Virus record (IMG/VR): IMGVR_UViG_2711768014_000006
Origin: a virus
Lineage: Duplodnaviria > Heunggongvirae > Uroviricota > Caudoviricetes
Length of the DNA stretch: 44,064 bases
Direction: 5' to 3' (one strand)
The position numbers and the translations under genes are program-made. This document shows positions 74 through 10,606 of the stretch, piece after piece. Numbering within the stretch: position 1 is the first letter of the stretch; each line of letters begins with the position of its first letter. Under the pieces are notes generated by a model, which was not told where the DNA came from, made no database searches, and worked only from the letters and a program-made list of their open reading frames with translations.

Positions 74-304
74 ATGGTAGTGTCCGCTATTGCCAGTACA
101 CCTCAGCTATTACCTTCTTCAGAGAGCCCCCAGCTACTTCCTGTGACTCTCGATGCAGCTGCCGAACAGCCAGAATCGCTCGCAGAGGACCCGAAAACCC
201 TCAGTATCAGCTGTGAGGTAACGTTCCGGCACGGGACGCTCCGCTTCAATGGCAATGTCAGCGAAAAGCTCCTGACTCTGCTGATACAGGAACTGAAGCG
301 ATGA
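74..304 (+). CDS. IS66-family accessory protein TnpA-like (orf1), possibly truncated at the window edge
   Basis: ORF immediately upstream of and overlapping the IS66 TnpB-like ORF by ATGA. Confidence 0.5.
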   Translation: MVVSAIASTPQLLPSSESPQLLPVTLDAAAEQPESLAEDPKTLSISCEVTFRHGTLRFNGNVSEKLLTLLIQELKR

Positions 305-624
305 TCCCGTTACCTTCCGGGATCAAAATTTGGCTGGTTGCCGGTATCACCGATATGAGAAATGGCTTCAACGGCCTGGCTGCGAAAGTACAGACGGCGC
401 TGAAAGACGATCCCATGTCCGGCCATGTTTTCATTTTCCGGGGCCGCAGCGGCAGTCAGGTTAAACTGCTGTGGTCCACCAGTGACGGACTGTGCCTCCT
501 GACCAAACGGCTGGAGCGTGGGCGCTTCGCCTGGCCGTCAGCCCGTGATGGCAAAGTGTTCCTTACACAGGCGCAGCTGGCGATGCTGCTGGAAGGTATC
601 GACTGGCGACATATAACCAGGTGA
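301..624 (+). CDS. tnpB: IS66-family accessory protein TnpB (orf2)
   Basis: 107-aa product MIPLPSGIKIWLVAGITDMRNGFNGL...GRFAWP matches the conserved IS66 Orf2 family as I recall it; the C-terminus ends exactly at the prophage junction. Confidence 0.8.
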   Translation: MIPLPSGIKIWLVAGITDMRNGFNGLAAKVQTALKDDPMSGHVFIFRGRSGSQVKLLWSTSDGLCLLTKRLERGRFAWPSARDGKVFLTQAQLAMLLEGIDWRHITR

Positions 625-1821: not shown

Positions 1822-3909
1822 ATGTTTGCTTCAGTTAAAGAACTGGTTGGATTACCGGGGATGCCGGGAACGGAGCAAGGCGTTCGCTATTCAATCAGGA
1901 AGTATGCAACCAGCGAAACCAGCAGACGCCGCAAGAAAGGCGCTAAAGGTTTTGAATACAGCATTGACTGTTTACCTGAAGTGACACAGCAGGCATTACG
2001 CGAACGTTATGCCCTGCAACTGATGACGCAAAAAGCCGATGAATCACCGGCTCCGGTGGTGACAAAGGCCAGACGCTCGTCTGCCGTGGTTGATGCGGTG
2101 GAGGCATATCGCGGATCACCACAACTGATGGTCGAACGCCTCAATGCCCTGACTGAAAACCAGCGCCAGGTGGCAGACGCACGCATTGCGATCGTCAGTG
2201 AGGTGCTGAAATTCACGCAACAACCCGGTTTCAGCTGCGCTAAAGCTATCCGGTTCCTCGTTAACAGCCTGGCACGATCACAACTGGACGAGCGCATTGT
2301 GGCAATGGTTGAGACGGCGAACGCCAAAAAGGGAAACAGCCGCGCGTTGAGTGAAATCACGCTGAAACGCTGGATTGCGGCCTTTAACAAGGCACAGAAC
2401 GCCGCTGAACGCCTGCTTTTACTGGCACCGGGTAAACGCCAGGAAATAAAAGCCGAAGATATTAACTGGCTGCCCGAATTTCTGGCGCAGTATCGCCAGT
2501 CAAACGGCCGACCAATGACCGAGGCTTACGAGGATTTTGTTGCTGAATGGCAGCACCGGCACGCTGATGAGCCTTATATGCTCGATATCATGCCCTCTTA
2601 TGACACCATTCGCCGCGCAATGAAGAAACTGCCGGAAGTGGTGAAACAAAAAGGCCGGGTAACTGGCAGTGAATACCGTCAGCTTGAGGGATTCACGCGC
2701 CGCGACTGGTCCAGAATGCCGGTGAATTATGTCTGGATTGGTGACGGTCACGGCATGAAGCTGAAATGCGCGCACCCGGTTCACGGGCGGCCATTCGCAC
2801 CGGAAGTGACCTTTGTTATCGACGGTGGCACGCGCTTTGTGGTGGGCTGGAGCCTTGACCTGGCTGAAAATGTTTTCGCCGTAGCCGGTGCCATACAGCA
2901 CGGTATTCGCCATCATGGCAAACCGTTTCTGTATTACTCGGATAATGGCTCCGGGGAAACCGCCGACGTCCTGGATAAGGAGATTGTGGGGATACTGCCA
3001 CGACTGGGGATTAATCACCCGACAGGGATTGCCGGTAATCCGCAGGGACGGGGCATTATCGAACGGCTTAACCGCACATTACCGATGCGCATAGCCCGTA
3101 AATACCGCACCTATTTCGGGAAAGGAGCAGATCGCGAGACGTTACGTAAAACCAACCGCGATTTACGCTCGGCATTCAGTGCCCTGCAACAGGGCAAACG
3201 GCTGAACGCCCGGCAGCAGTCAGCGATGCGTGATTTACCGTCCTGGTCTGAACTGATTGATGCCATTCGTGACGGTGTTGAGTGGTACAACAACCGGCCG
3301 CACGATGAATTACCCATGAAGCCGAACGGTAAACATTACAGCCCGGCGGAGTTCAGAAAAAAACGCCTGGCGGAAGAGGACACGGAAATTGAATGGCTGT
3401 CCGATGTTGAACTGCGGGATATGTTCCGGCCGATGGTGGAGCGCCCTGTAAGACGCTGTGAAATACGCTGGCTGAATAATATTTACTACGCGCCCGAGCT
3501 GCGTGACGAGCATGGCCGTAAGGTACTTATCAGCTATGACATTCATGATGCCGAACGAATTACCGTGCGCCGCCCGGATGGCAGCGTGATTTGCGAGGCG
3601 GTATGGGACGGCAATAAACGCGAAGCCTTCCCTGTCAGCGCGGAATACTACAAACAGCAGCAGCGCCTTAAAGGCATGCGTAAACGCGCAGAGGAAAAAA
3701 TCCGTGATGCCGAGGATGAGGTTGTCAACGTGCTGGAGCACAAGCCGCAGGAGCCCTGGCTGGAAAACATATACCGCCCTGTGGGTAATACGGTGACCGT
3801 TCAGCAACCGGTCGCTGACGATGAACCTGATGAAGAATACGAGCGTAATTTCCAGCGGGGATTGCAACTGCTCGAAGCGAAATTAAAAGAAAGTGATCCG
3901 CTGGCCTGA
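1822..3909 (+). CDS. Mu-type DDE transposase A
   Basis: 695-aa ORF directly after ner; length and position match MuA. Confidence 0.9.
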   Translation: MFASVKELVGLPGMPGTEQGVRYSIRKYATSETSRRRKKGAKGFEYSIDCLPEVTQQALRERYALQLMTQKADESPAPVVTKARRSSAVVDAVEAYRGSPQLMVERLNALTENQRQVADARIAIVSEVLKFTQQPGFSCAKAIRFLVNSLARSQLDERIVAMVETANAKKGNSRALSEITLKRWIAAFNKAQNAAERLLLLAPGKRQEIKAEDINWLPEFLAQYRQSNGRPMTEAYEDFVAEWQHRHADEPYMLDIMPSYDTIRRAMKKLPEVVKQKGRVTGSEYRQLEGFTRRDWSRMPVNYVWIGDGHGMKLKCAHPVHGRPFAPEVTFVIDGGTRFVVGWSLDLAENVFAVAGAIQHGIRHHGKPFLYYSDNGSGETADVLDKEIVGILPRLGINHPTGIAGNPQGRGIIERLNRTLPMRIARKYRTYFGKGADRETLRKTNRDLRSAFSALQQGKRLNARQQSAMRDLPSWSELIDAIRDGVEWYNNRPHDELPMKPNGKHYSPAEFRKKRLAEEDTEIEWLSDVELRDMFRPMVERPVRRCEIRWLNNIYYAPELRDEHGRKVLISYDIHDAERITVRRPDGSVICEAVWDGNKREAFPVSAEYYKQQQRLKGMRKRAEEKIRDAEDEVVNVLEHKPQEPWLENIYRPVGNTVTVQQPVADDEPDEEYERNFQRGLQLLEAKLKESDPLA

Positions 3910-3991
3910 AATAAAAAAATAACCCGAGGGGTGACTCAGGTTATTTGAGGTTTCAGTCTCGGAGAATGCTGTCTCAAGCGAGGTGAATAAT

Positions 3992-4924
3992 ATGACCGAT
4001 ATTAACGATGTAATCAAGACCATTGATGAACTTATTGATGGCGGCGTACTGACGCAGTATGCCATCGCCAGAGAGGCGGGAATTTCCGACGGCACATTAT
4101 CGGCTTTCCGTAAGGGAAAATATAAAGGCGATAACGCTGCTGTGGCTGCTTCCCTGCGCTCCTGGTATGAGAACTGGAATAAACAAAGCGCACTGCCGGA
4201 ACCGCCGCAGTTTGTGGAAACTCAGACAGTCCAGGAGCTGCGCGCACTGTTTCAGGCGGTTCGCCTGATGGGCTGTATTAACGTTATTGTGGGCGTACCG
4301 GGTGTGGGTAAAACGGCCACTGCCCGTAATTACTGCCAGGAGCAACCAAACACCTGGATGATCACCCTGTCACCCGCGCACTCCAGCGTCACGGAGTGTC
4401 TGCTGGAGCTGGCCGATGCGCTGGGGATTGATTACACCCGCGCGAACAAAGGGGCATTATCCCGCGCCATCCGCCGTCGCCTGATGGGAACGCGTGGACT
4501 GGTGATTGTGGATGAGGCGGATCATCTTGGTATTGACGGTCTGGAGCAACTCCGGGCAATTCAGGACGCCACGGGGATCGGGATGGTGCTTATTGGTAAC
4601 CCGCGCGGATTGTTTAAAGGTGGACGCCGCGCCTTTGATGATTTATCGCGCCTGTTCAGCCGTCTTGCCCGTACAAAACAACTTCGCAAGGCCAAAAAGG
4701 CGGATGTGCTGGCCATTGCCATGGCGTGGGGGATCAGTGGTGAGGCCGAGCTGGCCGTCATGCAGGCTATCGCTGAAAAGCCGGGAGCGTTACGCGTTCT
4801 GACACATACGCTTAACCAGGCGTGGCTCACCGCCAGCGGTGAAGGCGCGGCGCTGACAGAAAAACATATTAATGCGGCCTTTAAAGAGGTTTATACCAAC
4901 CCTGAATTACTCTCACAGGTGTGA
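3992..4924 (+). CDS. Mu B-like ATP-dependent target DNA activator
   Basis: Walker A motif GVPGVGKT; N-terminal HTH region resembles MuB; ATG at 3992 preceded by GAGG. Confidence 0.85.
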   Translation: MTDINDVIKTIDELIDGGVLTQYAIAREAGISDGTLSAFRKGKYKGDNAAVAASLRSWYENWNKQSALPEPPQFVETQTVQELRALFQAVRLMGCINVIVGVPGVGKTATARNYCQEQPNTWMITLSPAHSSVTECLLELADALGIDYTRANKGALSRAIRRRLMGTRGLVIVDEADHLGIDGLEQLRAIQDATGIGMVLIGNPRGLFKGGRRAFDDLSRLFSRLARTKQLRKAKKADVLAIAMAWGISGEAELAVMQAIAEKPGALRVLTHTLNQAWLTASGEGAALTEKHINAAFKEVYTNPELLSQV

Positions 4925-4926
4925 TT

Positions 4927-5148
4927 ATGGCGGTATTTAATATTCCTGATATTTACGGACGCTTTTACCTGGTTAATTTCGATAACGTGAAGGTGATTTC
5001 ACTGGCCGAAAATAAAGAATGTGGCGATTTACTTTTTGAATTTAATGACCGCACACGAATGGTGATATCTGCCGGACTTGATCGCGAAGGTGCGACAGAA
5101 GTTTACAGCGGAATATGCCGTTCTGTTGGTGCGAAACAAGTCAGCTAA
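4927..5148 (+). CDS. Hypothetical early protein (Mu kil position)
   Basis: 74-aa ORF immediately after B, translationally coupled. Confidence 0.45.
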   Translation: MAVFNIPDIYGRFYLVNFDNVKVISLAENKECGDLLFEFNDRTRMVISAGLDREGATEVYSGICRSVGAKQVS

Positions 5149-5160
5149 ATGAGGTGTTAT

Positions 5161-5415
5161 ATGAATATGCAATCCTGCGGTAACAAAATGAATTTATTCG
5201 ACTCCCTGAACAGCGCGCGCCGTCTGACCGAACTTGCCGGTGCGGTACTGGAACGCAGTAAGCGCTATCCGCAACGTTTTGCACTGAAAACCACGCCGCC
5301 GGTAGGCAACGTGCAGGGAACCGGTGAAATTGAAATCACCATACAGACCAACGGCCTGCGCCGCCGTGTGAAGGCCACCCGCATCAGCGGCTGCACGGTT
5401 TACTGGGAGGTGTGA
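5161..5415 (+). CDS. Hypothetical early protein
   Basis: ORF with ATG at 5161 following AGGTG. Confidence 0.4.
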   Translation: MNMQSCGNKMNLFDSLNSARRLTELAGAVLERSKRYPQRFALKTTPPVGNVQGTGEIEITIQTNGLRRRVKATRISGCTVYWEV

Positions 5416-5416
5416 G

Positions 5417-5698
5417 GTGAAAAAAAATCTCATTGCATGGGCGTGGTCGAGTGGTCTTATTGAGTTTGGTTACGTCCTGCCGGAAGGTGCATTGCCGATA
5501 GTTGCCGGAAAGCCTGCCACGGTACGGCATGTGATTGAGGTTATGGCGCGTCATGGACGTGATGAACAGGAGCAGTTACTGGTTCCGGGGATACCGGAAG
5601 CGGTGACGGAGGAAGAAGCCTTTAATGCCATGATTCGGTTCTGCCGTGAGGTTAGACGCCGGGTCAGTTATCCAAACAGAACGAGGACCAGAGGATGA
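5417..5698 (+). CDS. Hypothetical early protein
   Basis: GTG start 6 nt after GGGAGG; 93 aa. Confidence 0.45.
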   Translation: MKKNLIAWAWSSGLIEFGYVLPEGALPIVAGKPATVRHVIEVMARHGRDEQEQLLVPGIPEAVTEEEAFNAMIRFCREVRRRVSYPNRTRTRG

Positions 5699-5967
5699 GT
5701 AAAGTCGTACGCATTATTTTCGAATACAAGGAAGATGTTATCTGCAAAAACTCTGATGGCAGCACGCACAGAGGGGTAAGTCTGGATATACGTTCAACCG
5801 GAATAAAGAAGAAAGATAATGGACCCGCCATGATTTTTGGGGTGGTTATGCTGGCAGAAAGCAGAAACTTCGCAGAGTTTGTGGCAATGAAAGCCAGTGC
5901 ATTCATGAAAGACAGAGGCATGGCTTCCGGGGTTATTAACGGTAATGAATTTAATCAACAGGGGTAA
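5695..5967 (+). CDS. Hypothetical early protein (tandem paralogue 1)
   Basis: Starts MSKVVRIIFEY; resembles the next ORF. Confidence 0.45.
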   Translation: MSKVVRIIFEYKEDVICKNSDGSTHRGVSLDIRSTGIKKKDNGPAMIFGVVMLAESRNFAEFVAMKASAFMKDRGMASGVINGNEFNQQG

Positions 5968-5971
5968 TTCC

Positions 5972-6265
5972 ATGAGCAAAGTACGCGTTATTTTTGAATT
6001 TAATCATGTTTCGCATGACGAAAAGTTGGCAGGCAATGACTGTGTTGAAGTGCATGAAAAGATTGGAGTGGATGTGAAAACAGAACGTGATACGGATAAC
6101 AGGCCGACGTCACTCTGTGACGTTTATGCAAGTATTCTCCAGTATCACAGTCCTGCAATTATTCAGTTTCTCTCAGCGGAATTTCAGGCATCTGCACAGT
6201 CTTTTGGAGCGGATGCCATCATTAAACGCCACCGCGTGCATAAAGCATCAGGCACACTGCAATAA
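5972..6265 (+). CDS. Hypothetical early protein (tandem paralogue 2)
   Basis: Starts MSKVRVIFEF; resembles the preceding ORF. Confidence 0.45.
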   Translation: MSKVRVIFEFNHVSHDEKLAGNDCVEVHEKIGVDVKTERDTDNRPTSLCDVYASILQYHSPAIIQFLSAEFQASAQSFGADAIIKRHRVHKASGTLQ

Positions 6266-6276
6266 GGAAAAACAAA

Positions 6277-6807
6277 ATGGCTAAACGCGTTACAAAATTA
6301 AAGGCCGCAGCCGAGGCGGCACCGCAGACCCGGGAAGAAGTCAGCCGTGATATCCGCACCCTGGGAGATATTCAGCGAGAGGCGCTGCGCCTGGAAACGG
6401 CGATGAATGACGAAGTGGCAGAAATCACCGCCCGTTATACGCCGCAGATTGAAAATCTTAAAAAGCAAATCAAAGTGCTTTTTAAAGGGATTCAGGACTG
6501 GTGCAAAACCAACCGTGATGAGCTGACGAACGGCGGCAAAACCAAAACAGCCAATCTGACCACCGGAACGGTGTCATGGCGGCTGGGAACGCCATCATGC
6601 AGCGTCAGCCGTGATGTGGAAGGTGTGATTGAAATGCTGCGCCGTATGGGGCTTGAGCGTTTCATCCGCACGAAAGAGGAAGTGAACAAGGAAGCCGTCC
6701 TGGCGGAGCCGGATGCTGTGAAAGGCATTGCCGGTATCAAGGTGAATAAAGGCGCTGAAAGTTTTTATGTCGAGCCTTTTGAACAGGACGCCGGACTGAA
6801 TAAATAA
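6277..6807 (+). CDS. gam: Gam-like host-nuclease inhibitor (DNA end-binding protein)
   Basis: 176-aa product with Mu Gam-like sequence and position. Confidence 0.85.
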   Translation: MAKRVTKLKAAAEAAPQTREEVSRDIRTLGDIQREALRLETAMNDEVAEITARYTPQIENLKKQIKVLFKGIQDWCKTNRDELTNGGKTKTANLTTGTVSWRLGTPSCSVSRDVEGVIEMLRRMGLERFIRTKEEVNKEAVLAEPDAVKGIAGIKVNKGAESFYVEPFEQDAGLNK

Positions 6808-6952
6808 CACCGCATTAATCAATTAAATATCACTTCATTTTAATTATGGCGCTCGCGTCAGGGGACTGCTTGCGCCTGAAAACAGAAAATAAGGGTTAAG
6901 AAATATGAAATACGTTTATATCGTCATTAATAATGTGGTGGGGAAATAAATC

Positions 6953-7486
6953 ATGATTGATGCAAAAGTGCTTGAAGGGGTTAAAAACTGGCTGTGTATT
7001 TATGGCCGCCTGACCTGCGGTGTACTGGCTGAAAAAATGAATATGCCGCCATCCTCCATGGTTTATTTTCTGCGTGATGCGGTTGATGCAGGCGTGCTGA
7101 CGGAATGTAACGGTTTTTATGATATTCCGCGTCCCCGCCCGGTGCAGCCGGTTCGTCGCAAATGCAGCCAGGAATCTGCGGCTGATGATGTTCAGTGGTG
7201 CGGCTTCAGAAAATCCCTGCCATGGATTGAGGGGCATGATATTCCGTCGATGGCGTGGGAATTTGCTCAGGGCGTTCTGACCTGTGAAACCGTTTATGTG
7301 GTGGCTGAAGTTGATGAGCAGGCCATGAAAGAAGGCGTGCCCCAGTTTGTGATGGCGTATATCGACATACGCCTGGGCGTCATTATCTGCGGTTTAAGCG
7401 GCTGGAATATCACTGAACATGTTCTGCGCTACCTGATTGTTGACCGGACAGCAGCGCCTGCCGGGATATCTGCGGAGGTGGCGTAA
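6953..7486 (+). CDS. Hypothetical protein
   Basis: 177-aa ORF with RBS, after a 145-bp AT-rich intergenic gap. Confidence 0.5.
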   Translation: MIDAKVLEGVKNWLCIYGRLTCGVLAEKMNMPPSSMVYFLRDAVDAGVLTECNGFYDIPRPRPVQPVRRKCSQESAADDVQWCGFRKSLPWIEGHDIPSMAWEFAQGVLTCETVYVVAEVDEQAMKEGVPQFVMAYIDIRLGVIICGLSGWNITEHVLRYLIVDRTAAPAGISAEVA

Positions 7487-8001
7487 TGTTCTTTAAAACA
7501 TCAAACCCTTCCGCGCTGGCTGCGTGGCAAAAATACCAGCAGGACTGCCAGAAAGTTAAGGATGAGGCAAAACGCCTTGAGGCCGTGCTGAATGTTGCGT
7601 GCCGGTCGGTATTTGTATCCGGTATCAGTGGATTTTACTTTAAGGGACTGCGTTTTACGGAGGACAAATATCCTTTTCATCGCGACTTATGGCGAAAACC
7701 GACTGCGTCGAATGGCTGGAGCTGCACACCGCGCACATCACGTATCCCTAAAACCCTGCGTGTTGCCTCTGATGAACTGAACAGTCTGTGGCGTGAATAT
7801 TCGCCCGTCACGTATGCCAGAACCGATGCGCTGTTGTTCTGGTTGGGTATTGATTTCTCGGCAATCCTGTTTGGCCCTGTGAAGTGGTTCTGCGTTGACG
7901 ATGTGATTTACCTTCAGTGCGGCGTAAAACCCGCAAAACAGAAAATGACCGAAATACTGTCTGATGAGTTTTATGCTGCTGAAAAGCGAGTCAGGGGGTG
8001 A
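7486..8001 (+). CDS. Hypothetical protein
   Basis: 171-aa ORF, translationally coupled. Confidence 0.5.
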   Translation: MFFKTSNPSALAAWQKYQQDCQKVKDEAKRLEAVLNVACRSVFVSGISGFYFKGLRFTEDKYPFHRDLWRKPTASNGWSCTPRTSRIPKTLRVASDELNSLWREYSPVTYARTDALLFWLGIDFSAILFGPVKWFCVDDVIYLQCGVKPAKQKMTEILSDEFYAAEKRVRG

Positions 8002-8004
8002 TGC

Positions 8005-8556
8005 ATGATGAAATTACAACCCATGGGACTAAAAGGTCGCGCCCCCGCTCATGTCCGTCCGTGGACACCTGAAGAAGATGCGCTGCTGATTGCGCTTTAT
8101 TCATCCACCCCGGTTAAGGATATTGCTGCCAGAATAAAAAGAACTGTCTGGGCTGTATATAACCGGACTGGTGTATTGCGCAGTTCATACCCGGAGTTAC
8201 TGAAATATAAACACCCAAGATTTACACCTGATGAAGATAAGTTTATTCGAAAAAATGCCAGAACAATGACCTGCCAGCAAATGGGAGAATATCTCGGACG
8301 TAATAAAGATTCTGTCAGATGTCGGGCAGGAATGATTGGTGCTGGATTAACAAAGTGCGGAGAGTTACGCCCCGGCACGCGCATATCTGATGATGATGTA
8401 CGTCTTATACGTGAGCTGCGTGATTCCGATTACCCACGCCGTCTGTCATTCCGGGAAATTGGCGAAAAGTTTGGAATATCTGAACATTCTGCTCACGCAG
8501 TTTATTACCGTCGCCGGACTGCCGAGGACGCTGTATTACGGGAGTTAACGCCATGA
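8005..8556 (+). CDS. Putative DNA-binding protein (two Myb/SANT-like W/F-TP-E-ED repeats plus C-terminal HTH)
   Basis: Motifs WTPEEDALLIALY and FTPDEDKFIR, then LSFREIGEKFGISEHSAHAVYYRR. Confidence 0.5.
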   Translation: MMKLQPMGLKGRAPAHVRPWTPEEDALLIALYSSTPVKDIAARIKRTVWAVYNRTGVLRSSYPELLKYKHPRFTPDEDKFIRKNARTMTCQQMGEYLGRNKDSVRCRAGMIGAGLTKCGELRPGTRISDDDVRLIRELRDSDYPRRLSFREIGEKFGISEHSAHAVYYRRRTAEDAVLRELTP

Positions 8557-8885
8557 TAACGACCTTATTTGTTGAATCAGATGAACCTCTTGTGTGTGCC
8601 GCCGGAATGCCGCTCTGTGGCGGAACGCTGACCGGCGTTTATTTCGGGGATTTGCGCGGTTATCCCTGGCATTCACTGGATGACGCATTTCCGCCTGATA
8701 TGGAGGCTGTCGTGCTGATTGTTCAGTATGGTGACCAACAGGAACTGCGCATCGGCCATATGGGGTATGAAGGCTTTTTTATTGATGAAGAAACCGGAGC
8801 CTGCCTTGAAGATGAGGACGGACAGGTGACGCACTGGTGCCATCTTTCGGCCTTGCCGGAATTACAGGGGATACATAATGGATGA
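8553..8885 (+). CDS. Hypothetical protein
   Basis: 110-aa ORF overlapping neighbours. Confidence 0.5.
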   Translation: MITTLFVESDEPLVCAAGMPLCGGTLTGVYFGDLRGYPWHSLDDAFPPDMEAVVLIVQYGDQQELRIGHMGYEGFFIDEETGACLEDEDGQVTHWCHLSALPELQGIHNG

Positions 8886-9021
8886 GCAAATTGTTGAATG
8901 TCCCACCTGTGGAAATGAGGACCCGGAGTATCTGAAAGAGTGCCCACATTGTGGTGAGATAAAATGTAACCACTGCGATATGGGCGACGACACTGCATGT
9001 ATAAATTGTGAGGATGAATAA
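8878..9021 (+). CDS. Small zinc-ribbon protein (four CxxC pairs), 47 aa
   Basis: MDEQIVECPTCGNEDPEYLKECPHCGEIKCNHCDMGDDTACINCEDE; start overlaps the previous stop (ATGGATGA); below the ORF-track length cutoff. Confidence 0.4.
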   Translation: MDEQIVECPTCGNEDPEYLKECPHCGEIKCNHCDMGDDTACINCEDE

Positions 9022-9022
9022 T

Positions 9023-9310
9023 ATGGAAAAAGAAATCAAATTTGCGCCTAAATCTATCGACGAAGAACTGGCTAAAATCGGCATGCTTGAACGTATGCGG
9101 GACATTATCGAATATGCGATAAAAGAAAATCTTGCAGCCAGAGAAGCCCTTTTGATAATGGAGCGGGAGATTAACCTGATTAAGGATGCTGTATCTCTGG
9201 ATAATAAAATAGCCCGCGAGGAATACGTTCGCCGTAGGCTCGGTGTTGATGGTTCAGCAATTCTTACATCTGAACATTATGCAAAAATTTTTAATCTTTT
9301 TCAGCGGTAA
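9023..9310 (+). CDS. Hypothetical protein
   Basis: ATG at 9023 preceded by GAGGA; 95 aa, predicted helical. Confidence 0.45.
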   Translation: MEKEIKFAPKSIDEELAKIGMLERMRDIIEYAIKENLAAREALLIMEREINLIKDAVSLDNKIAREEYVRRRLGVDGSAILTSEHYAKIFNLFQR

Positions 9311-9530
9311 TCCCCATACAGGCCCGGAGATTGTCGAAATGCCAGTCGGTATTAATATATGAGCCATCCTGGATATCTTCTGCATTTTCCGGGGTAGAGT
9401 TTTTTTGAGCGAGATTGATAATATGTATTGCCTCCTCACGGGAAATCAGCCCCTTATCGAACAGGGTTACCATAAGATTTCCAGCCATTGTGAATGCGGC
9501 AACATCAAGTGCATTTTTTATATCTGACAT
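9291..9530 (-). CDS. Hypothetical protein encoded antisense to the early operon
   Basis: 79-aa minus-strand ORF with AGGA RBS; its 3' end overlaps the 3' end of 9023..9310 by 20 bp. Confidence 0.4.
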   Translation of the reverse strand: MSDIKNALDVAAFTMAGNLMVTLFDKGLISREEAIHIINLAQKNSTPENAEDIQDGSYINTDWHFDNLRACMGITAEKD

Positions 9531-9600
9531 AGATTTTTCCTTTTATGTTAATTGACATGGCGGTGCGGTAACACCGCCCATTTTTTATGGAGCCACGATA

Positions 9601-10113
9601 ATGAATCGCGCTTCCCTGATTACCTTAATACATGTCGCAAAACGCGATCTACAGCTTGACCATGATACCTATACATCCGCGCTGCTGGCAGCCACCGGCA
9701 AATCCAGTTGCCGTGATATGTCACCCGGTGAGTTATCCCGCGTGCTGGATGTTTTCAAAAAACGCGGTTTTAAAGTGCGTCAGAAGCCGGTTAACCGGGC
9801 CTTAAAACCGGGTACGGTGACCGCCAAAATTCGCGCCATCTGGAAAGTGATGCACCGGCAGGGATTTATCTCTGATGGCGGGGAAACGGCCCTTAACCGC
9901 TGGGTGAAATCGCAGACGGCCGCGCAGAACGACGGCGAAGGTGTGGCTAACTGGCAGTGGCTGGAGCAACAACCCGCGCTGGCCTCTGATGTGCTGGAGC
10001 GTCTCAAACGCTGGCACCGCCGCAAAATGCTGGCAGCCCTGGATATGTCGGAACGTGCAGTGATGAGTTATGAGCGTGTTTGCAGGCTGTATGAAAAATC
10101 ATTCCCCCGTTAA
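9601..10113 (+). CDS. GemA-like regulatory protein (Mu gp16 family)
   Basis: 170-aa ORF at the end of the early operon, position and sequence consistent with Mu GemA. Confidence 0.65.
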   Translation: MNRASLITLIHVAKRDLQLDHDTYTSALLAATGKSSCRDMSPGELSRVLDVFKKRGFKVRQKPVNRALKPGTVTAKIRAIWKVMHRQGFISDGGETALNRWVKSQTAAQNDGEGVANWQWLEQQPALASDVLERLKRWHRRKMLAALDMSERAVMSYERVCRLYEKSFPR

Positions 10114-10118
10114 CCCCA

Positions 10119-10148
10119 AATCCCGCCACAGCGCGGGATTTTTATTTT
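10119..10148 (+). terminator. Rho-independent terminator at the end of the early operon
   Basis: Hairpin TCCCGC-CACAGC-GCGGGA followed by TTTTTATTTT. Confidence 0.6.
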
Positions 10149-10183
10149 AAACTTGCCCTGTGTAATGATGACCGGAGGCGGGT

Positions 10184-10606
10184 ATGGCTGAAACACAGAT
10201 GAGCATGTTTGGTGACAGCGAACAGCTGCACGCGCTGATTGACCGTCTGGATGATATTCCTGATGATGAGCTGAAAAAGAACTGGCCCGGCACGCTGCGG
10301 GACCTGGTTGATGTGATCAGTGCTGAACTGCACCGTCAGGGGATTGAACCTGCTCAGGCGGGAATGCTTGCCCGTAAGGTTGCAGCCGCACAGGCCGGGT
10401 ACATGGGCGGGCGTGGTTATTATCTCCCGGTCGGTGAATCCCTTTTCACCGAACTGCGCAATAATGAAATTTTTTCCCGCTGGAGCCAGGGCGAAAAAAT
10501 TGAAACCCTGCGCCGCCACTACCAGATGTCAGAGACGCAGATTTACTCCGTTATCCGCAACCAGCGTCGCCTGCATCAGGAACGCACGCAGCCACGGCTT
10601 TTCTGA
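10184..10606 (+). CDS. Mor/C-family transcriptional activator
   Basis: 140-aa product with Mor/C-like sequence; only one family member is present. Confidence 0.8.
   Translation: MAETQMSMFGDSEQLHALIDRLDDIPDDELKKNWPGTLRDLVDVISAELHRQGIEPAQAGMLARKVAAAQAGYMGGRGYYLPVGESLFTELRNNEIFSRWSQGEKIETLRRHYQMSETQIYSVIRNQRRLHQERTQPRLF

What the first reader, a model, noticed from the sequence alone, without database searches (positions are those of the whole stretch)
4927..8885. Large block of unannotatable early (semi-essential region) genes, including a Myb/SANT-HTH protein
Between B and gemA, apart from gam, lie at least eleven ORFs with no recognisable family. In Mu-like phages this region holds host-takeover and anti-defence functions. 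The 183-aa protein (8005..8556) has two Myb/SANT-like repeats plus an HTH, suggesting a DNA-binding regulator. A 145-bp AT-rich non-coding gap at 6808..6952 may hold an internal promoter or small RNA.
Basis: partly seen in the sequence, partly recalled or inferred. Interest (0 to 1): 0.55.

Follow-up and report, generated by a model that had tools for sequence, protein, structure and literature searches.

The report
Mu-like prophage semi-essential early genes
This is the ordinary "semi-essential" early gene block of a Mu-like prophage that is common in E. coli: about half of its small genes are orthologues of phage Mu genes, the rest belong to known but uncharacterised phage families, and the only mildly new points are a conserved hairpin after gam that marks a variable gene slot and a mislabelled gene family.

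Summary
The ORFs, the 145-bp AT-rich gap and the 183-aa Myb/SANT-HTH protein are all at the stated coordinates. "No recognisable family" is wrong. All twelve non-gam ORFs between B and gemA fall in PHROG families. Four are clear Mu orthologues: gp11 (68% identity), gp12 (55%), gp13 (88%) and gp14 (49%). One is a weak Kil relative. The 183-aa protein belongs to the Mu gp9 family with one extra repeat, and an AlphaFold model shows three tandem three-helix HTH modules. Five plus-strand ORFs and one minus-strand ORF are absent from Mu, but each is found on more than 1000 E. coli/Shigella contigs. Functions remain unknown: no defence-model matches, and no PDB or fold matches for those tested. The label "host nuclease inhibitor" on the 93-aa ORF traces to a frameshifted D3112 gam annotation. 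The gap shows no convincing promoter or known RNA. It holds a hairpin conserved directly after gam in the enterobacterial Mu-like phages examined, without covariation support. It also holds a 14-codon stub where relatives carry a hypervariable DUF5420-type gene. Verdict: an ordinary Mu-like early region, low to moderate interest.

The parts
4927..5148 (+). O1, 73 aa, acidic (pI 4.9). Lineage-specific early gene placed directly after B, with no Mu homologue.
   Evidence: phrog_3375 at E 1.2e-46, function unknown. No Pfam, NCBIfam or PADLOC match. No Mu match. Distant 70-aa relatives occur upstream of gam in some Mu-lineage loci. Found on more than 1000 contigs. Third-position bias in substitutions.
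5161..5415 (+). O2, 84 aa, basic. Probable distant Kil homologue.
   Evidence: phrog_2679 ('Kil') at E 6.6e-46, plus Mu Kil's own family phrog_2743 at E 9e-4. Mu Kil hits phrog_2679 in return at E 9.3e-5. BLASTP to the Mu Kil C-terminus gives 33% over 39 aa. hhalign probability is only 23.6%. One RefSeq record names it 'Kil protein family'.
5417..5698 (+). O3, 93 aa. Member of a large uncharacterised ~80-aa domain family, mislabelled 'host nuclease inhibitor'.
   Evidence: phrog_1518. 546 clusters at 50% identity match at E <= 1e-3. No Pfam or PDB match. hhalign to Gam gives probability 0.2%. The label traces to the frameshifted D3112/MP38 'gam' ORF. O3 is absent from many close relatives.
5695..5967 (+). 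O4, 90 aa, function unknown. Its start overlaps the O3 stop.
   Evidence: phrog_4107 at E 1.7e-54. No Mu homologue. Alleles go down to 79% identity.
5972..6265 (+). O5, 97 aa, function unknown. Possible remote relative of Mu gp7.
   Evidence: phrog_2230 at E 1.8e-38. A gp7-like protein of L007 hits phrog_2230 at E 4.7e-13. Mu gp7 itself hits it only at E 0.009. hhalign between the O5 family and the Mu gp7 family gives only 11.8%.
6277..6807 (+). Gam, the Ku-like DNA-end-binding protein.
   Evidence: Pfam Phage_Mu_Gam at 143.7 bits. 57% identical to Mu Gam over the full length.
6823..6881 (+). Conserved non-coding element just 3' of gam. It is an AT-rich stretch followed by the hairpin GGCGCTCGCGTCAGGGGACTGCTTGCGCC (6848-6876), with no T-run after it.
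   Evidence: Conserved in the window lineage, the Mu lineage and Kluyvera/Enterobacteriaceae loci. Present once in the window. In viral contigs, every match with the AT-rich flank lies after gam where enough sequence was held. Hairpin free energy is -15 to -19.5 kcal/mol. 89% of cells are paired, but there are no compensatory changes. No Rfam match in 4500-10500.
6905..6949 (+). 14-codon stub ORF (MKYVYIVINNVVGK). Probable remnant of a deleted phrog_2260/DUF5420-type cargo gene.
   Evidence: Its ribosome-binding region and first codons align with the start of the 180-aa gene of L006. Relatives carry a 167-196-aa gene at this position.
6953..7486 (+). O7, orthologue of Mu gp11.
   Evidence: 68% identical to Mu gp11 over the full length. 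Pfam Gp11_C at 139.2 bits against a cut-off of 27. phrog_1949.
7486..8001 (+). O8, orthologue of Mu gp12. Its start overlaps the O7 stop.
8005..8556 (+). O9, 183 aa, basic (pI 9.9). Three tandem three-helix HTH modules: two Myb/SANT-like and one sigma-70 region 4 / AsnC-type. Belongs to the Mu gp9 family.
   Evidence: AF2 model with pLDDT 84.6 and helices at 22-59, 75-110 and 129-169. Homologues carry precomputed PF00249, PF13921 and PF04545. phrog_323 is shared with Mu gp9. BLASTP of O9 residues 66-168 to gp9 residues 1-92 gives 27%, E 3e-6. Pfam Myb is below threshold for the window protein itself, 19.7 against 24.4 bits.
8553..8885 (+). O10, 110 aa, very acidic (pI 4.05; 19 D/E against 2 K/R). 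DUF551-like at sub-threshold level.
   Evidence: phrog_6925 at E 2.1e-51. Pfam DUF551 at 14.6 bits against a cut-off of 22. Composition.
8878..9021 (+). O11, 47 aa, with four CxxC motifs (zinc ribbon). Orthologue of Mu gp13; not annotated in RefSeq.
   Evidence: 88% identical to the Mu gp13 C-terminus. phrog_5584. No CDS at this position in the RefSeq record. Third-position bias.
9023..9310 (+). O12, orthologue of Mu gp14.
   Evidence: 49% identical to Mu gp14. phrog_6075.
9291..9530 (-). O13, 79 aa, the only gene on the opposite strand. It sits in a second variable slot between gp14 and gemA.
   Evidence: phrog_32893. No Mu homologue. Replaced by other genes, including a minus-strand DUF2513 gene, in L002.
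9559..9587 (+). Terminator-like hairpin with a T-run just upstream of gemA.
   Evidence: Consensus scan only.

Best explanation
The block is the semi-essential early region of a Mu-like transposable prophage lineage that is common in E. coli and Shigella. By analogy with Mu, it is read rightward from the early promoter as the continuation of the ner-A-B operon; this is inferred, not shown.

It is a mosaic. A core is shared with Mu: a Kil-like protein, Gam, the overlapping gp11-gp12 pair, the zinc-ribbon gp13, and gp14. Between these lie lineage-specific small genes (O1, O3, O4, O5, O10, and the reverse-strand O13). These are kept under purifying selection but come and go between close relatives.

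The 183-aa protein is an enlarged member of the Mu gp9 family. It has three tandem helix-turn-helix modules and a basic charge, so it most likely binds double-stranded DNA sequence-specifically. I infer that it acts as an early regulator of phage or host transcription.

The only real intergenic gap has two parts. The first is an AT-rich stretch plus a GC hairpin conserved directly after gam in the enterobacterial Mu-like phages examined. I think it acts on the early mRNA, as a 3'-end stabiliser, processing site or pause site that separates the A-to-gam part of the transcript from the distal part. It also marks the left edge of a gene-cassette slot. The second part is a 14-codon stub left where relatives carry a fast-diverging DUF5420-type gene.

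My estimates for the separate steps:
- Identity of the region and the orthology calls: about 0.9.
- O9 binds DNA: about 0.85. O9 is a transcription regulator: about 0.5.
- The stub is a deletion scar: about 0.7.
- The hairpin works at the RNA level: about 0.4.
For: Synteny and Pfam matches for B, Gam, GemA and Mor. Full-length similarity to Mu gp11, gp12, gp13 and gp14. Every ORF is in a PHROG family. There is only one gap longer than 12 bp between plus-strand genes. Third-position substitution bias in all ORFs.

The same block occurs in 233 of 5426 complete E. coli genomes, and each of the ten proteins looked up is on more than 1000 contigs. Presence or absence of O3 and O11-O13, and distinct allele classes of O4, O5 and O9, vary among loci whose Gam is at least 93% identical.

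O9: AF2 model with pLDDT 84.6 and three three-helix bundles. Myb and Sigma70_r4 Pfam domains in homologues. Same PHROG as Mu gp9. Its nearest folds are multi-HTH DNA binders.

Gap: the conserved element aligns between the window, its relatives and Mu. The motif is unique in the window. Where an upstream ORF could be read, it always follows gam. The hairpins are stable. In 66 non-redundant contexts after the hairpin, 29 hold a DUF5420-type gene, 20 run directly into gp11, 8 hold an 88-91-aa gene, 7 hold the stub, one holds an 80-aa gene and one looks like a false motif match. The slot proteins are only 22-100% identical within the window lineage.

Against: The hairpin has no compensatory base changes, so RNA structure is not proven; its conserved loop and stem could equally be a DNA or protein recognition site. 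The middle of the stub does not align with any cargo gene, so the deletion scenario is inferred. Kil homology rests on about 38 C-terminal residues. Transcription from Pe was not tested.
Confidence: 0.8

Rival explanations
1. Anti-defence island. One or more of the lineage-specific small proteins (O1, O3, O4, O5, O10) directly inhibit host immune systems. The very acidic O10, for example, could act as a DNA mimic.
For: These are small early genes with presence/absence and allelic variation between near-identical prophages. O10 has pI 4.05. Mu-type Gam proteins of other phages have been reported to block or trigger defence systems (10.1101/2024.04.14.589459; abstract of PMC12407980). Small early proteins of Pseudomonas Mu-like phages (Tip, Aqs1) bind host targets (PMC11656802).
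Against: There is no sequence or fold similarity to any characterised inhibitor. PADLOC, Pfam and NCBIfam give nothing, although PADLOC models defence proteins rather than inhibitors, so its silence says little. Variation is equally expected for any dispensable accessory gene. Nothing was tested experimentally.
Confidence: 0.3
2. The 145-bp gap carries an internal promoter or a small RNA gene.
For: The gap is AT-rich at 35.9% G+C. It contains a strongly conserved element. One weak sigma-70-like match lies at 6905-6934.
Against: That match scores only 9 of 12 and lies inside the non-conserved stub. The region holds 6 such matches against 7.0 expected by chance. The conserved AT-rich part has no acceptable -35/-10 pair on reading the sequence. 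No Rfam match. The hairpin has no T-run on either strand.
Confidence: 0.12
3. The conserved post-gam hairpin is a DNA-level site, not an RNA element. It could be a protein-binding or recombination site that promotes exchange of the downstream cassette.
For: The stem ends and loop are conserved in sequence, with no compensatory changes. Sequence homology between lineages stops right after GCGCCTGAA, where different genes follow.
Against: No recombinase or binding protein is known for it. Slot proteins of the Mu lineage and the window lineage are only distantly related (mean identity about 44%; the near-identical pairs come from two loci whose lineage I mis-assigned because their gam is frameshifted), so there is no sign of recent cassette transfer between lineages.
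Confidence: 0.25
4. O3 works together with Gam as a second host-nuclease inhibitor, as its database name implies.
For: O3 homologues lie next to gam in Pseudomonas Casadabanvirus phages (the gam stop and the next gene's start are one base apart), in L007, and near gam in L018.
Against: The name comes from a 266-aa 'gam' ORF in D3112 and MP38. That ORF is one base shorter than the two-gene arrangement in JBD26 and DMS3, and it loses the conserved Gam C-terminus. There is no homology to Gam (probability 0.2%). The early region is small, so proximity to gam means little. BcepMigl has an O3 homologue with no annotated gam within 2.5 kb on either side.
Confidence: 0.15

Closest known systems
Semi-essential early region of Escherichia phage Mu (genes 5-14, AF083977)
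   Same: Same position between B and gemA, and the same strand. Shared genes are gam (57% identity), gp11 (68%), gp12 (55%), gp13 (88%) and gp14 (49%), with a Kil-like gene near B. The same hairpin follows gam.
   Different: Mu gp6 and gp8 have no counterpart here, and gp7 only a doubtful one (O5). The window has O1, O3, O4, O5, O10 and O13 instead. The gp9-family gene has three repeats instead of two and sits after gp12 rather than before gam. An extra gene, O1, lies between B and the Kil-like gene.
Mu gp9 / PHROG 323 tandem-HTH proteins
   Same: O9 residues 66-168 align with the whole of gp9 (27% identity, E 3e-6). Both match phrog_323.
   Different: O9 has an additional N-terminal Myb/SANT-like repeat, residues 19-59. 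Neither protein has a known function.
DMS3 gene 12 / JBD26 gp14, and the C-terminal part of the D3112 and MP38 'gam' ORFs (Pseudomonas Casadabanvirus)
   Same: Same ~80-aa domain as O3, 43-50% identity.
   Different: In those phages the gene directly follows gam; here it lies two genes upstream. The 'host nuclease inhibitor' name is an annotation artefact.
Tip (D3112) and Aqs1 (DMS3), small early proteins of Pseudomonas Mu-like phages
   Same: Small proteins of Mu-like phages that act by binding host proteins (PMC11656802). That they are encoded in the early region is from my own knowledge. They serve as a functional analogy for what the orphan ORFs may do.
   Different: No sequence relationship was looked for or found. 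This is analogy only.
PeSL (promoter-early stem-loop) elements that flank variable ORFs in T4-like phages (from my own knowledge, not checked here)
   Same: A conserved AT-rich stretch plus a stem-loop at the edge of a slot where different small genes are found.
   Different: There is no promoter consensus here, one copy per genome rather than many, and no evidence of recombination between copies.

Membership tests
Mu-like semi-essential early region | Lies between the transposition genes A/B and gemA/mor, on the same strand, and includes gam | tested here: met
   Pfam Phage-MuB_C, Phage_Mu_Gam and GemA; gene order.
Mu-like semi-essential early region | Orthologues of Mu gp11, gp12, gp13 and gp14 | tested here: met
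   BLASTP gives 68%, 55%, 88% and 49% identity. hhalign probability is 100% for each pair.
Mu-like semi-essential early region | Transcribed as part of the early operon from Pe | not testable with these tools
   Inferred only from tight gene spacing and the Mu literature (PMC3820752).
Kil (Mu gp5) | Sequence homology to Mu Kil | tested here: inconclusive
   Reciprocal weak PHROG cross-hits at E 9e-4 and 9.3e-5. 33% identity over 39 C-terminal residues. hhalign probability 23.6%.
Kil (Mu gp5) | Kills the host or alters cell shape when expressed | not testable with these tools
   Needs an expression assay.
SANT/Myb-like DNA-binding domain (PF00249, PF13921) | Pfam score above the gathering threshold | tested here: not met
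   The window protein scores 19.7 against 24.4 bits and 16.5 against 22.9 bits. Homologues of 44-62% identity do carry precomputed PF00249 and PF13921 assignments.
SANT/Myb-like DNA-binding domain (PF00249, PF13921) | Three-helix bundle repeats with the W/F-[ST]-x-x-E-D motif in helix 1 | tested here: met
   The AF2 model has three three-helix modules. The motifs are WTPEEDALL at residues 20-28 and FTPDEDKFI at residues 74-82.
SANT/Myb-like DNA-binding domain (PF00249, PF13921) | Binds DNA | not testable with these tools
   Inferred from the fold, pI 9.9, and multi-HTH DNA binders as the nearest folds.
Phage Mu Gp11 (PF25754 Gp11_C) | Pfam score above threshold | tested here: met
   139.2 bits against a cut-off of 27.
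Mu-Gp12 family (PF26885) | Family assignment of close relatives, and homology to Mu gp12 | tested here: met
   All 46 relatives found carry a precomputed PF26885 assignment. 55% identity to Mu gp12. The model itself is not in the local Pfam copy.
Gam / host-nuclease inhibitor (as a label for O3) | Homology to Phage_Mu_Gam | tested here: not met
   No Pfam hit. hhalign probability 0.2%. The name is traced to a frameshifted ORF.
DUF551 (as a label for O10) | Pfam score above threshold | tested here: not met
   14.6 bits against a cut-off of 22, E 0.062. There are weak PHROG cross-hits over the same residues 39-103.
Intrinsic terminator (for hairpin 6848-6876) | GC-rich stem followed by a T-run | tested here: not met
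   The stem is followed by TGAAAACAG. The terminator scan does not report it.
Structured RNA element (for hairpin 6848-6876) | Base pairs maintained by compensatory changes | tested here: inconclusive
   89.4% of cells are paired, against 26-60% when the partner strand is slid. No pair changes on both sides, and shuffles do equally well.
Known Rfam families | Covariance-model match | tested here: not met
   No relevant match in 4500-10500 at E <= 1.

The most novel reading that the evidence does not exclude
At least one of the lineage-specific early proteins is a new kind of host-takeover or anti-defence factor. The best candidates are the very acidic O10 and the widespread, Pfam-less O3 domain family. 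In addition, the conserved post-gam hairpin could be a dedicated element that controls expression of, or exchange at, a hypervariable cassette slot shared by enterobacterial Mu-like phages.
Probability: 0.25. Interest if true: 0.6.

Novelty: new member of a known kind. Interest (0 to 1): 0.3.

Why it matters
In practice this corrects the picture for annotators. Roughly half of the block can be named by orthology to Mu: gp11, gp12, gp13, gp14, a gp9-family tri-HTH protein and a Kil-like protein. The 47-aa gp13 gene is missed by RefSeq. The label 'host nuclease inhibitor' on the O3 family should be dropped.

Biologically, the useful leads are modest but concrete:
- An ~80-aa domain family with at least 546 sequence clusters has no Pfam model and no known structure.
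- A non-coding hairpin is conserved directly after gam from Mu to Kluyvera prophages.
- Next to it is a slot whose DUF5420-type occupant diverges to 22% identity while the neighbouring Gam stays at least 93% identical. That is the signature expected of a gene in an arms race.

None of this changes what is known about how Mu-like phages work.

Tried and rejected
1. O1 and O3 as paralogues. hhalign gave 99% probability, but this came from one locus (L065) in which a deletion fuses the O1 N-terminus to the O3 C-terminus and contaminated both alignments. With a clean O3 alignment the probability falls to 6.7%.

2. Gam-O3 fusion in D3112 and MP38 as 'Rosetta stone' evidence for a shared function. 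Rejected: the fused ORF is one base shorter than the two-gene version in JBD26 and DMS3, and it replaces the conserved Gam C-terminus with out-of-frame residues.

3. O4, O5 and Mu gp7 as one family. Only the first ~15 residues resemble each other (hhalign 40% for O4 against O5, 11.8% for O5 against gp7). PHROG cross-hits are weak. Left as 'possible'.

5. Whole-chain Foldseek of O9 against the PDB gave no significant hit, as expected for modules joined by flexible linkers. BFVD gave 27 hits, nearly all uncharacterised.

7. Repeats in 4800-10300 as candidate O9 binding sites: only short matches that look like chance.

8. PADLOC and NCBIfam: no hits.

9. Literature searches on DUF5420, on Mu gp11/gp12, and on terminators or attenuation in the Mu early operon found nothing relevant. 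The Pe* promoter of Mu lies inside gene A, not in this gap.

10. Recent exchange of the slot cassette between the Mu lineage and the window lineage: not supported.

Full report
**What the window is.** The first 11 kb carry, in Mu order, a repressor gene on the minus strand (858-1403), then ner, A (1822-3909), B (3983-4924), a run of small plus-strand genes, gemA (9601-10113), mor (10184-10606) and a lysozyme gene. Pfam confirms MuB (Phage-MuB_C), Gam (143.7 bits) and GemA. The stretch 4800-9600 is 100% identical to an E. coli chromosome, and related sequence occurs in 233 of 5426 complete E. coli genomes. In RefSeq the genes are 'hypothetical protein', apart from Gam and a 'SANT/Myb-like DNA-binding domain-containing protein'. 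Each of the ten proteins I looked up is found on more than 1000 contigs of E. coli or Shigella. This is therefore a common, already sequenced Mu-like prophage lineage.

**Checking the observation.** Between B and gemA, apart from gam, there are eleven plus-strand ORFs:
- O1 4927-5148
- O2 5161-5415
- O3 5417-5698
- O4 5695-5967
- O5 5972-6265
- O7 6953-7486
- O8 7486-8001
- O9 8005-8556
- O10 8553-8885
- O11 8878-9021
- O12 9023-9310

There is also one minus-strand ORF, O13 at 9291-9530. The finding's coordinates (4927-8885) cover nine of them. Spacing between plus-strand genes runs from an 8-bp overlap to a 12-bp gap everywhere except between gam and O7, where the gap is exactly 145 bp with 35.9% G+C. 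Among related prophages, substitutions in every ORF fall mostly on third codon positions. These are therefore real protein-coding genes, including the 47-aa O11 that RefSeq leaves out.

**Are they unannotatable?** No, at the level of family; yes, at the level of function. Every ORF matches a PHROG family at E <= 1e-26. Direct comparison with phage Mu (AF083977) gives these results:
- O7 matches gp11 at 68% identity.
- O8 matches gp12 at 55%.
- O11 matches gp13 at 88%.
- O12 matches gp14 at 49%.
- Gam is 57% identical to Mu Gam.
- O9 residues 66-168 align with the whole of gp9 (27%, E 3e-6).

O7 hits Pfam Gp11_C at 139 bits. All relatives of O8 carry a precomputed PF26885 assignment, and one RefSeq record calls a near-identical relative of O8 'Mu-Gp12 family protein'. 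O2 and Mu Kil give reciprocal but weak cross-hits between their PHROG families (E 9e-4 and 9.3e-5) over about 38 C-terminal residues (33% identity). hhalign gives only 23.6%, so Kil homology is plausible but not established.

O1, O3, O4, O5, O10 and O13 have no Mu counterpart. O5 may be a remote gp7 relative. O10 looks DUF551-like below threshold (14.6 against 22 bits). NCBIfam and PADLOC give nothing.

**The 183-aa protein.** The window protein itself scores below the Pfam Myb thresholds. Its homologues at 44-62% identity in Salmonella carry precomputed Myb_DNA-binding, Myb_DNA-bind_6 and Sigma70_r4 domains. An AlphaFold2 model built on 22 sequences has mean pLDDT 84.6. It shows three consecutive three-helix bundles at residues 22-59, 75-110 and 129-169, plus a C-terminal helix. 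The first two begin with the Myb/SANT helix-1 motifs WTPEEDALL and FTPDEDKFI. Mu gp9 falls in the same PHROG (323) and corresponds to modules 2 and 3, so O9 is a gp9-family protein with one extra N-terminal repeat.

Whole-chain Foldseek against the PDB gives no significant hit. The top of the list consists mostly of multi-HTH DNA binders: the CRISPR-repeat-binding protein 2lvs, SNAPc, DUX4, Tc3 and Mos1 transposases, and Pax. Against predicted viral structures there are 27 hits at E <= 1e-3. Nearly all are uncharacterised phage proteins, and some are annotated as endonucleases. The protein is basic, with pI 9.9. DNA binding is a strong inference; a regulatory role is a reasonable guess; no target was found.

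**The gap.** A consensus scan finds one weak promoter-like match (9 of 12) at 6905-6934. The region as a whole holds fewer such matches than shuffled sequence does, and the terminator scan reports nothing in the gap. Rfam finds nothing relevant.

Comparison with relatives is more informative. The first ~75 nt after the gam stop are conserved not only in close relatives but also in Mu itself. This part is an AT-rich stretch followed by GGCGC-N-CGTCAGGGGA-N-GCGCCTGAA. It is also conserved in prophages of Kluyvera and an unnamed Enterobacteriaceae bacterium. The motif occurs once in the window and once per locus. A scan of viral contigs found that 33 of the 35 matches with the AT-rich flank have a Gam ORF just upstream. 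One of the other two lies at a contig end, and no Gam ORF was detected for the other. All remaining matches are chance hits in GC-rich contigs.

Each variant folds into a hairpin of -15 to -19.5 kcal/mol. Across 19 variants 89% of cells pair, against 26-60% in slid controls. No pair changes on both sides, and shuffles do as well. RNA structure is therefore not demonstrated, and no T-run follows the stem.

Homology between lineages ends right after the hairpin. In 66 non-redundant contexts the next gene is:
- a 167-196-aa protein of the phrog_2260/DUF5420 type in 29 contexts;
- gp11 directly, as in Mu, in 20;
- an 88-91-aa gene in 8;
- a 14-codon stub, as in the window, in 7;
- an 80-aa gene in 1;
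- and one context looks like a false match of the motif.

These counts come, with family assignments. The ribosome-binding region and first codons of the window's stub align with the start of the 180-aa gene of a 98%-identical relative. It is therefore most likely a deletion scar. Within the window lineage the slot proteins are as little as 22% identical, although Gam next door is at least 93% identical. The slot is thus hypervariable, and in this prophage it is empty.

**The mislabelled ORF.** O3 is called 'host nuclease inhibitor protein' in GenBank and PHROGs. An exhaustive HMMER search finds 546 clusters (at 50% identity) of an ~80-aa domain. Most are stand-alone and some carry extensions. 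None of the proteins tested has a Pfam domain or a relative in the PDB. A profile of the family has no similarity to Gam (probability 0.2%).

Among isolated phages the family is found mainly in Pseudomonas Casadabanvirus. In D3112 and MP38 the annotated 'gam' is a 266-aa ORF. In DMS3 and JBD26 the same DNA is one base longer and encodes a 172-aa Gam with the conserved C-terminus (...IEDFAIVPFEAEVQ), followed one base later by a 93-aa O3-like gene. The name therefore spread from a frameshifted ORF. It carries no functional information, and the apparent fusion cannot be used as evidence of a shared function.

**Variation.** Among about 45 loci of the window lineage, O3 is often missing. O11-O13 are replaced by other genes in some loci (for example a minus-strand DUF2513 gene). 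O4, O5 and O9 occur as distinct allele classes. The block is thus a conserved Mu core interleaved with exchangeable accessory genes.

**Mechanism and comparison.** The best-supported reading is the semi-essential early region of a Mu-like prophage, co-transcribed with A and B. This follows from the tight spacing and from Mu, where the early transcript runs from ner to C and the functions of the semi-essential genes are 'largely unknown' (PMC3820752). Gam protects DNA ends. The Kil-like protein may affect the host cell. O9 probably binds DNA. The rest cannot be assigned.

The idea that some are anti-defence or host-takeover factors is reasonable by analogy. Mu-type Gam proteins of other phages have been reported to interact with defence systems (10.1101/2024.04.14.589459). 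Tip and Aqs1 of Pseudomonas Mu-like phages bind host PilB and LasR (PMC11656802). Nothing in this analysis tests that idea.

**Verdict.** It is a new member of a known kind, already present in hundreds of genomes, and most ORFs can be placed in families. Three by-products deserve a note: the conserved post-gam hairpin with its hypervariable slot, the large Pfam-less O3 family with its mistaken name, and the unannotated gp13 orthologue.

Noticed in passing
window 301-624 and about 622-790: An IS66-family TnpB ORF (Pfam TnpB_IS66, 128 bits) ends at a stop codon at 622-624, right where three copies of a repeat (ATTTGATACCGA or ATTTGATACTG, at about 629, 724 and 775) begin. These repeats look like transposase-binding sites of the prophage left end. 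From memory, full-length IS66 TnpB proteins continue past this point, so the prophage appears to have inserted into an IS66 element and truncated tnpB. The 100%-identical early region in NZ_CM128582.1 sits next to an incomplete sgrR gene instead, so that is an independent insertion.
   Followed up: partly
window 8878-9021: The 47-aa ORF with four CxxC motifs is 88% identical to the C-terminus of Mu gp13 and shows third-position substitution bias. It is not annotated in the RefSeq record of the identical sequence.
   Followed up: yes
window 9291-9530 (minus strand) and 9559-9587: O13 is the only reverse-strand gene in the early region. It overlaps the end of the gp14-like gene by 20 bp and lies in a second variable slot; other prophages carry, among other genes, a minus-strand DUF2513 gene there (L002 7778-8125). 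A plus-strand terminator-like hairpin with a T-run (9559-9587) sits between it and gemA. This looks like a prophage-expressed moron.
   Followed up: partly
L065 5171-5422: One related viral contig carries an in-frame fusion of the O1 N-terminus to the O3 C-terminus, with the Kil-like gene deleted. This single sequence produced a false 99% hhalign match between the O1 and O3 families.
   Followed up: yes
L229 1976-2776 (D3112), L232 676-1476 (MP38), against L231 675-1476 (JBD26) and L230 1975-2776 (DMS3): The 266-aa 'gam' ORFs of D3112 and MP38 are one base shorter than the two-gene arrangement (Gam of 172 aa plus a 93-aa gene) in JBD26 and DMS3. This is either a sequencing error or a real frameshift, and it is the source of the 'host nuclease inhibitor' name of the O3 family.
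   Followed up: yes
L004 3593-4084, L005 3391-3969, L006 3605-4147 and Mu-lineage loci such as L070 and L094: The gene that fills the post-gam slot in relatives (phrog_2260, partly Pfam DUF5420) comes in at least three very different types (starting MSIKYRYFKMNE, MAYFYFKLDRV or MKACAYFKLSD). It is far more divergent than its neighbours, and no paper in the library mentions DUF5420.
   Followed up: partly
L132 (IMGVR_UViG_2690316161_000025): A viral contig of exactly the window's length (44064 bases) turned up in the motif scan. It carries the Mu-type hairpin variant, not the window's variant, so it is not the same sequence at this position. The equal length may be coincidence.
   Followed up: no
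window 5033-5046 and 5991-6004: An exact 14-nt repeat, TTTTTGAATTTAAT, encodes 'FEFN' in both O1 and O5. O4 has the similar 'FEYK' near its N-terminus. This may be chance or a trace of a shared origin.
   Followed up: no
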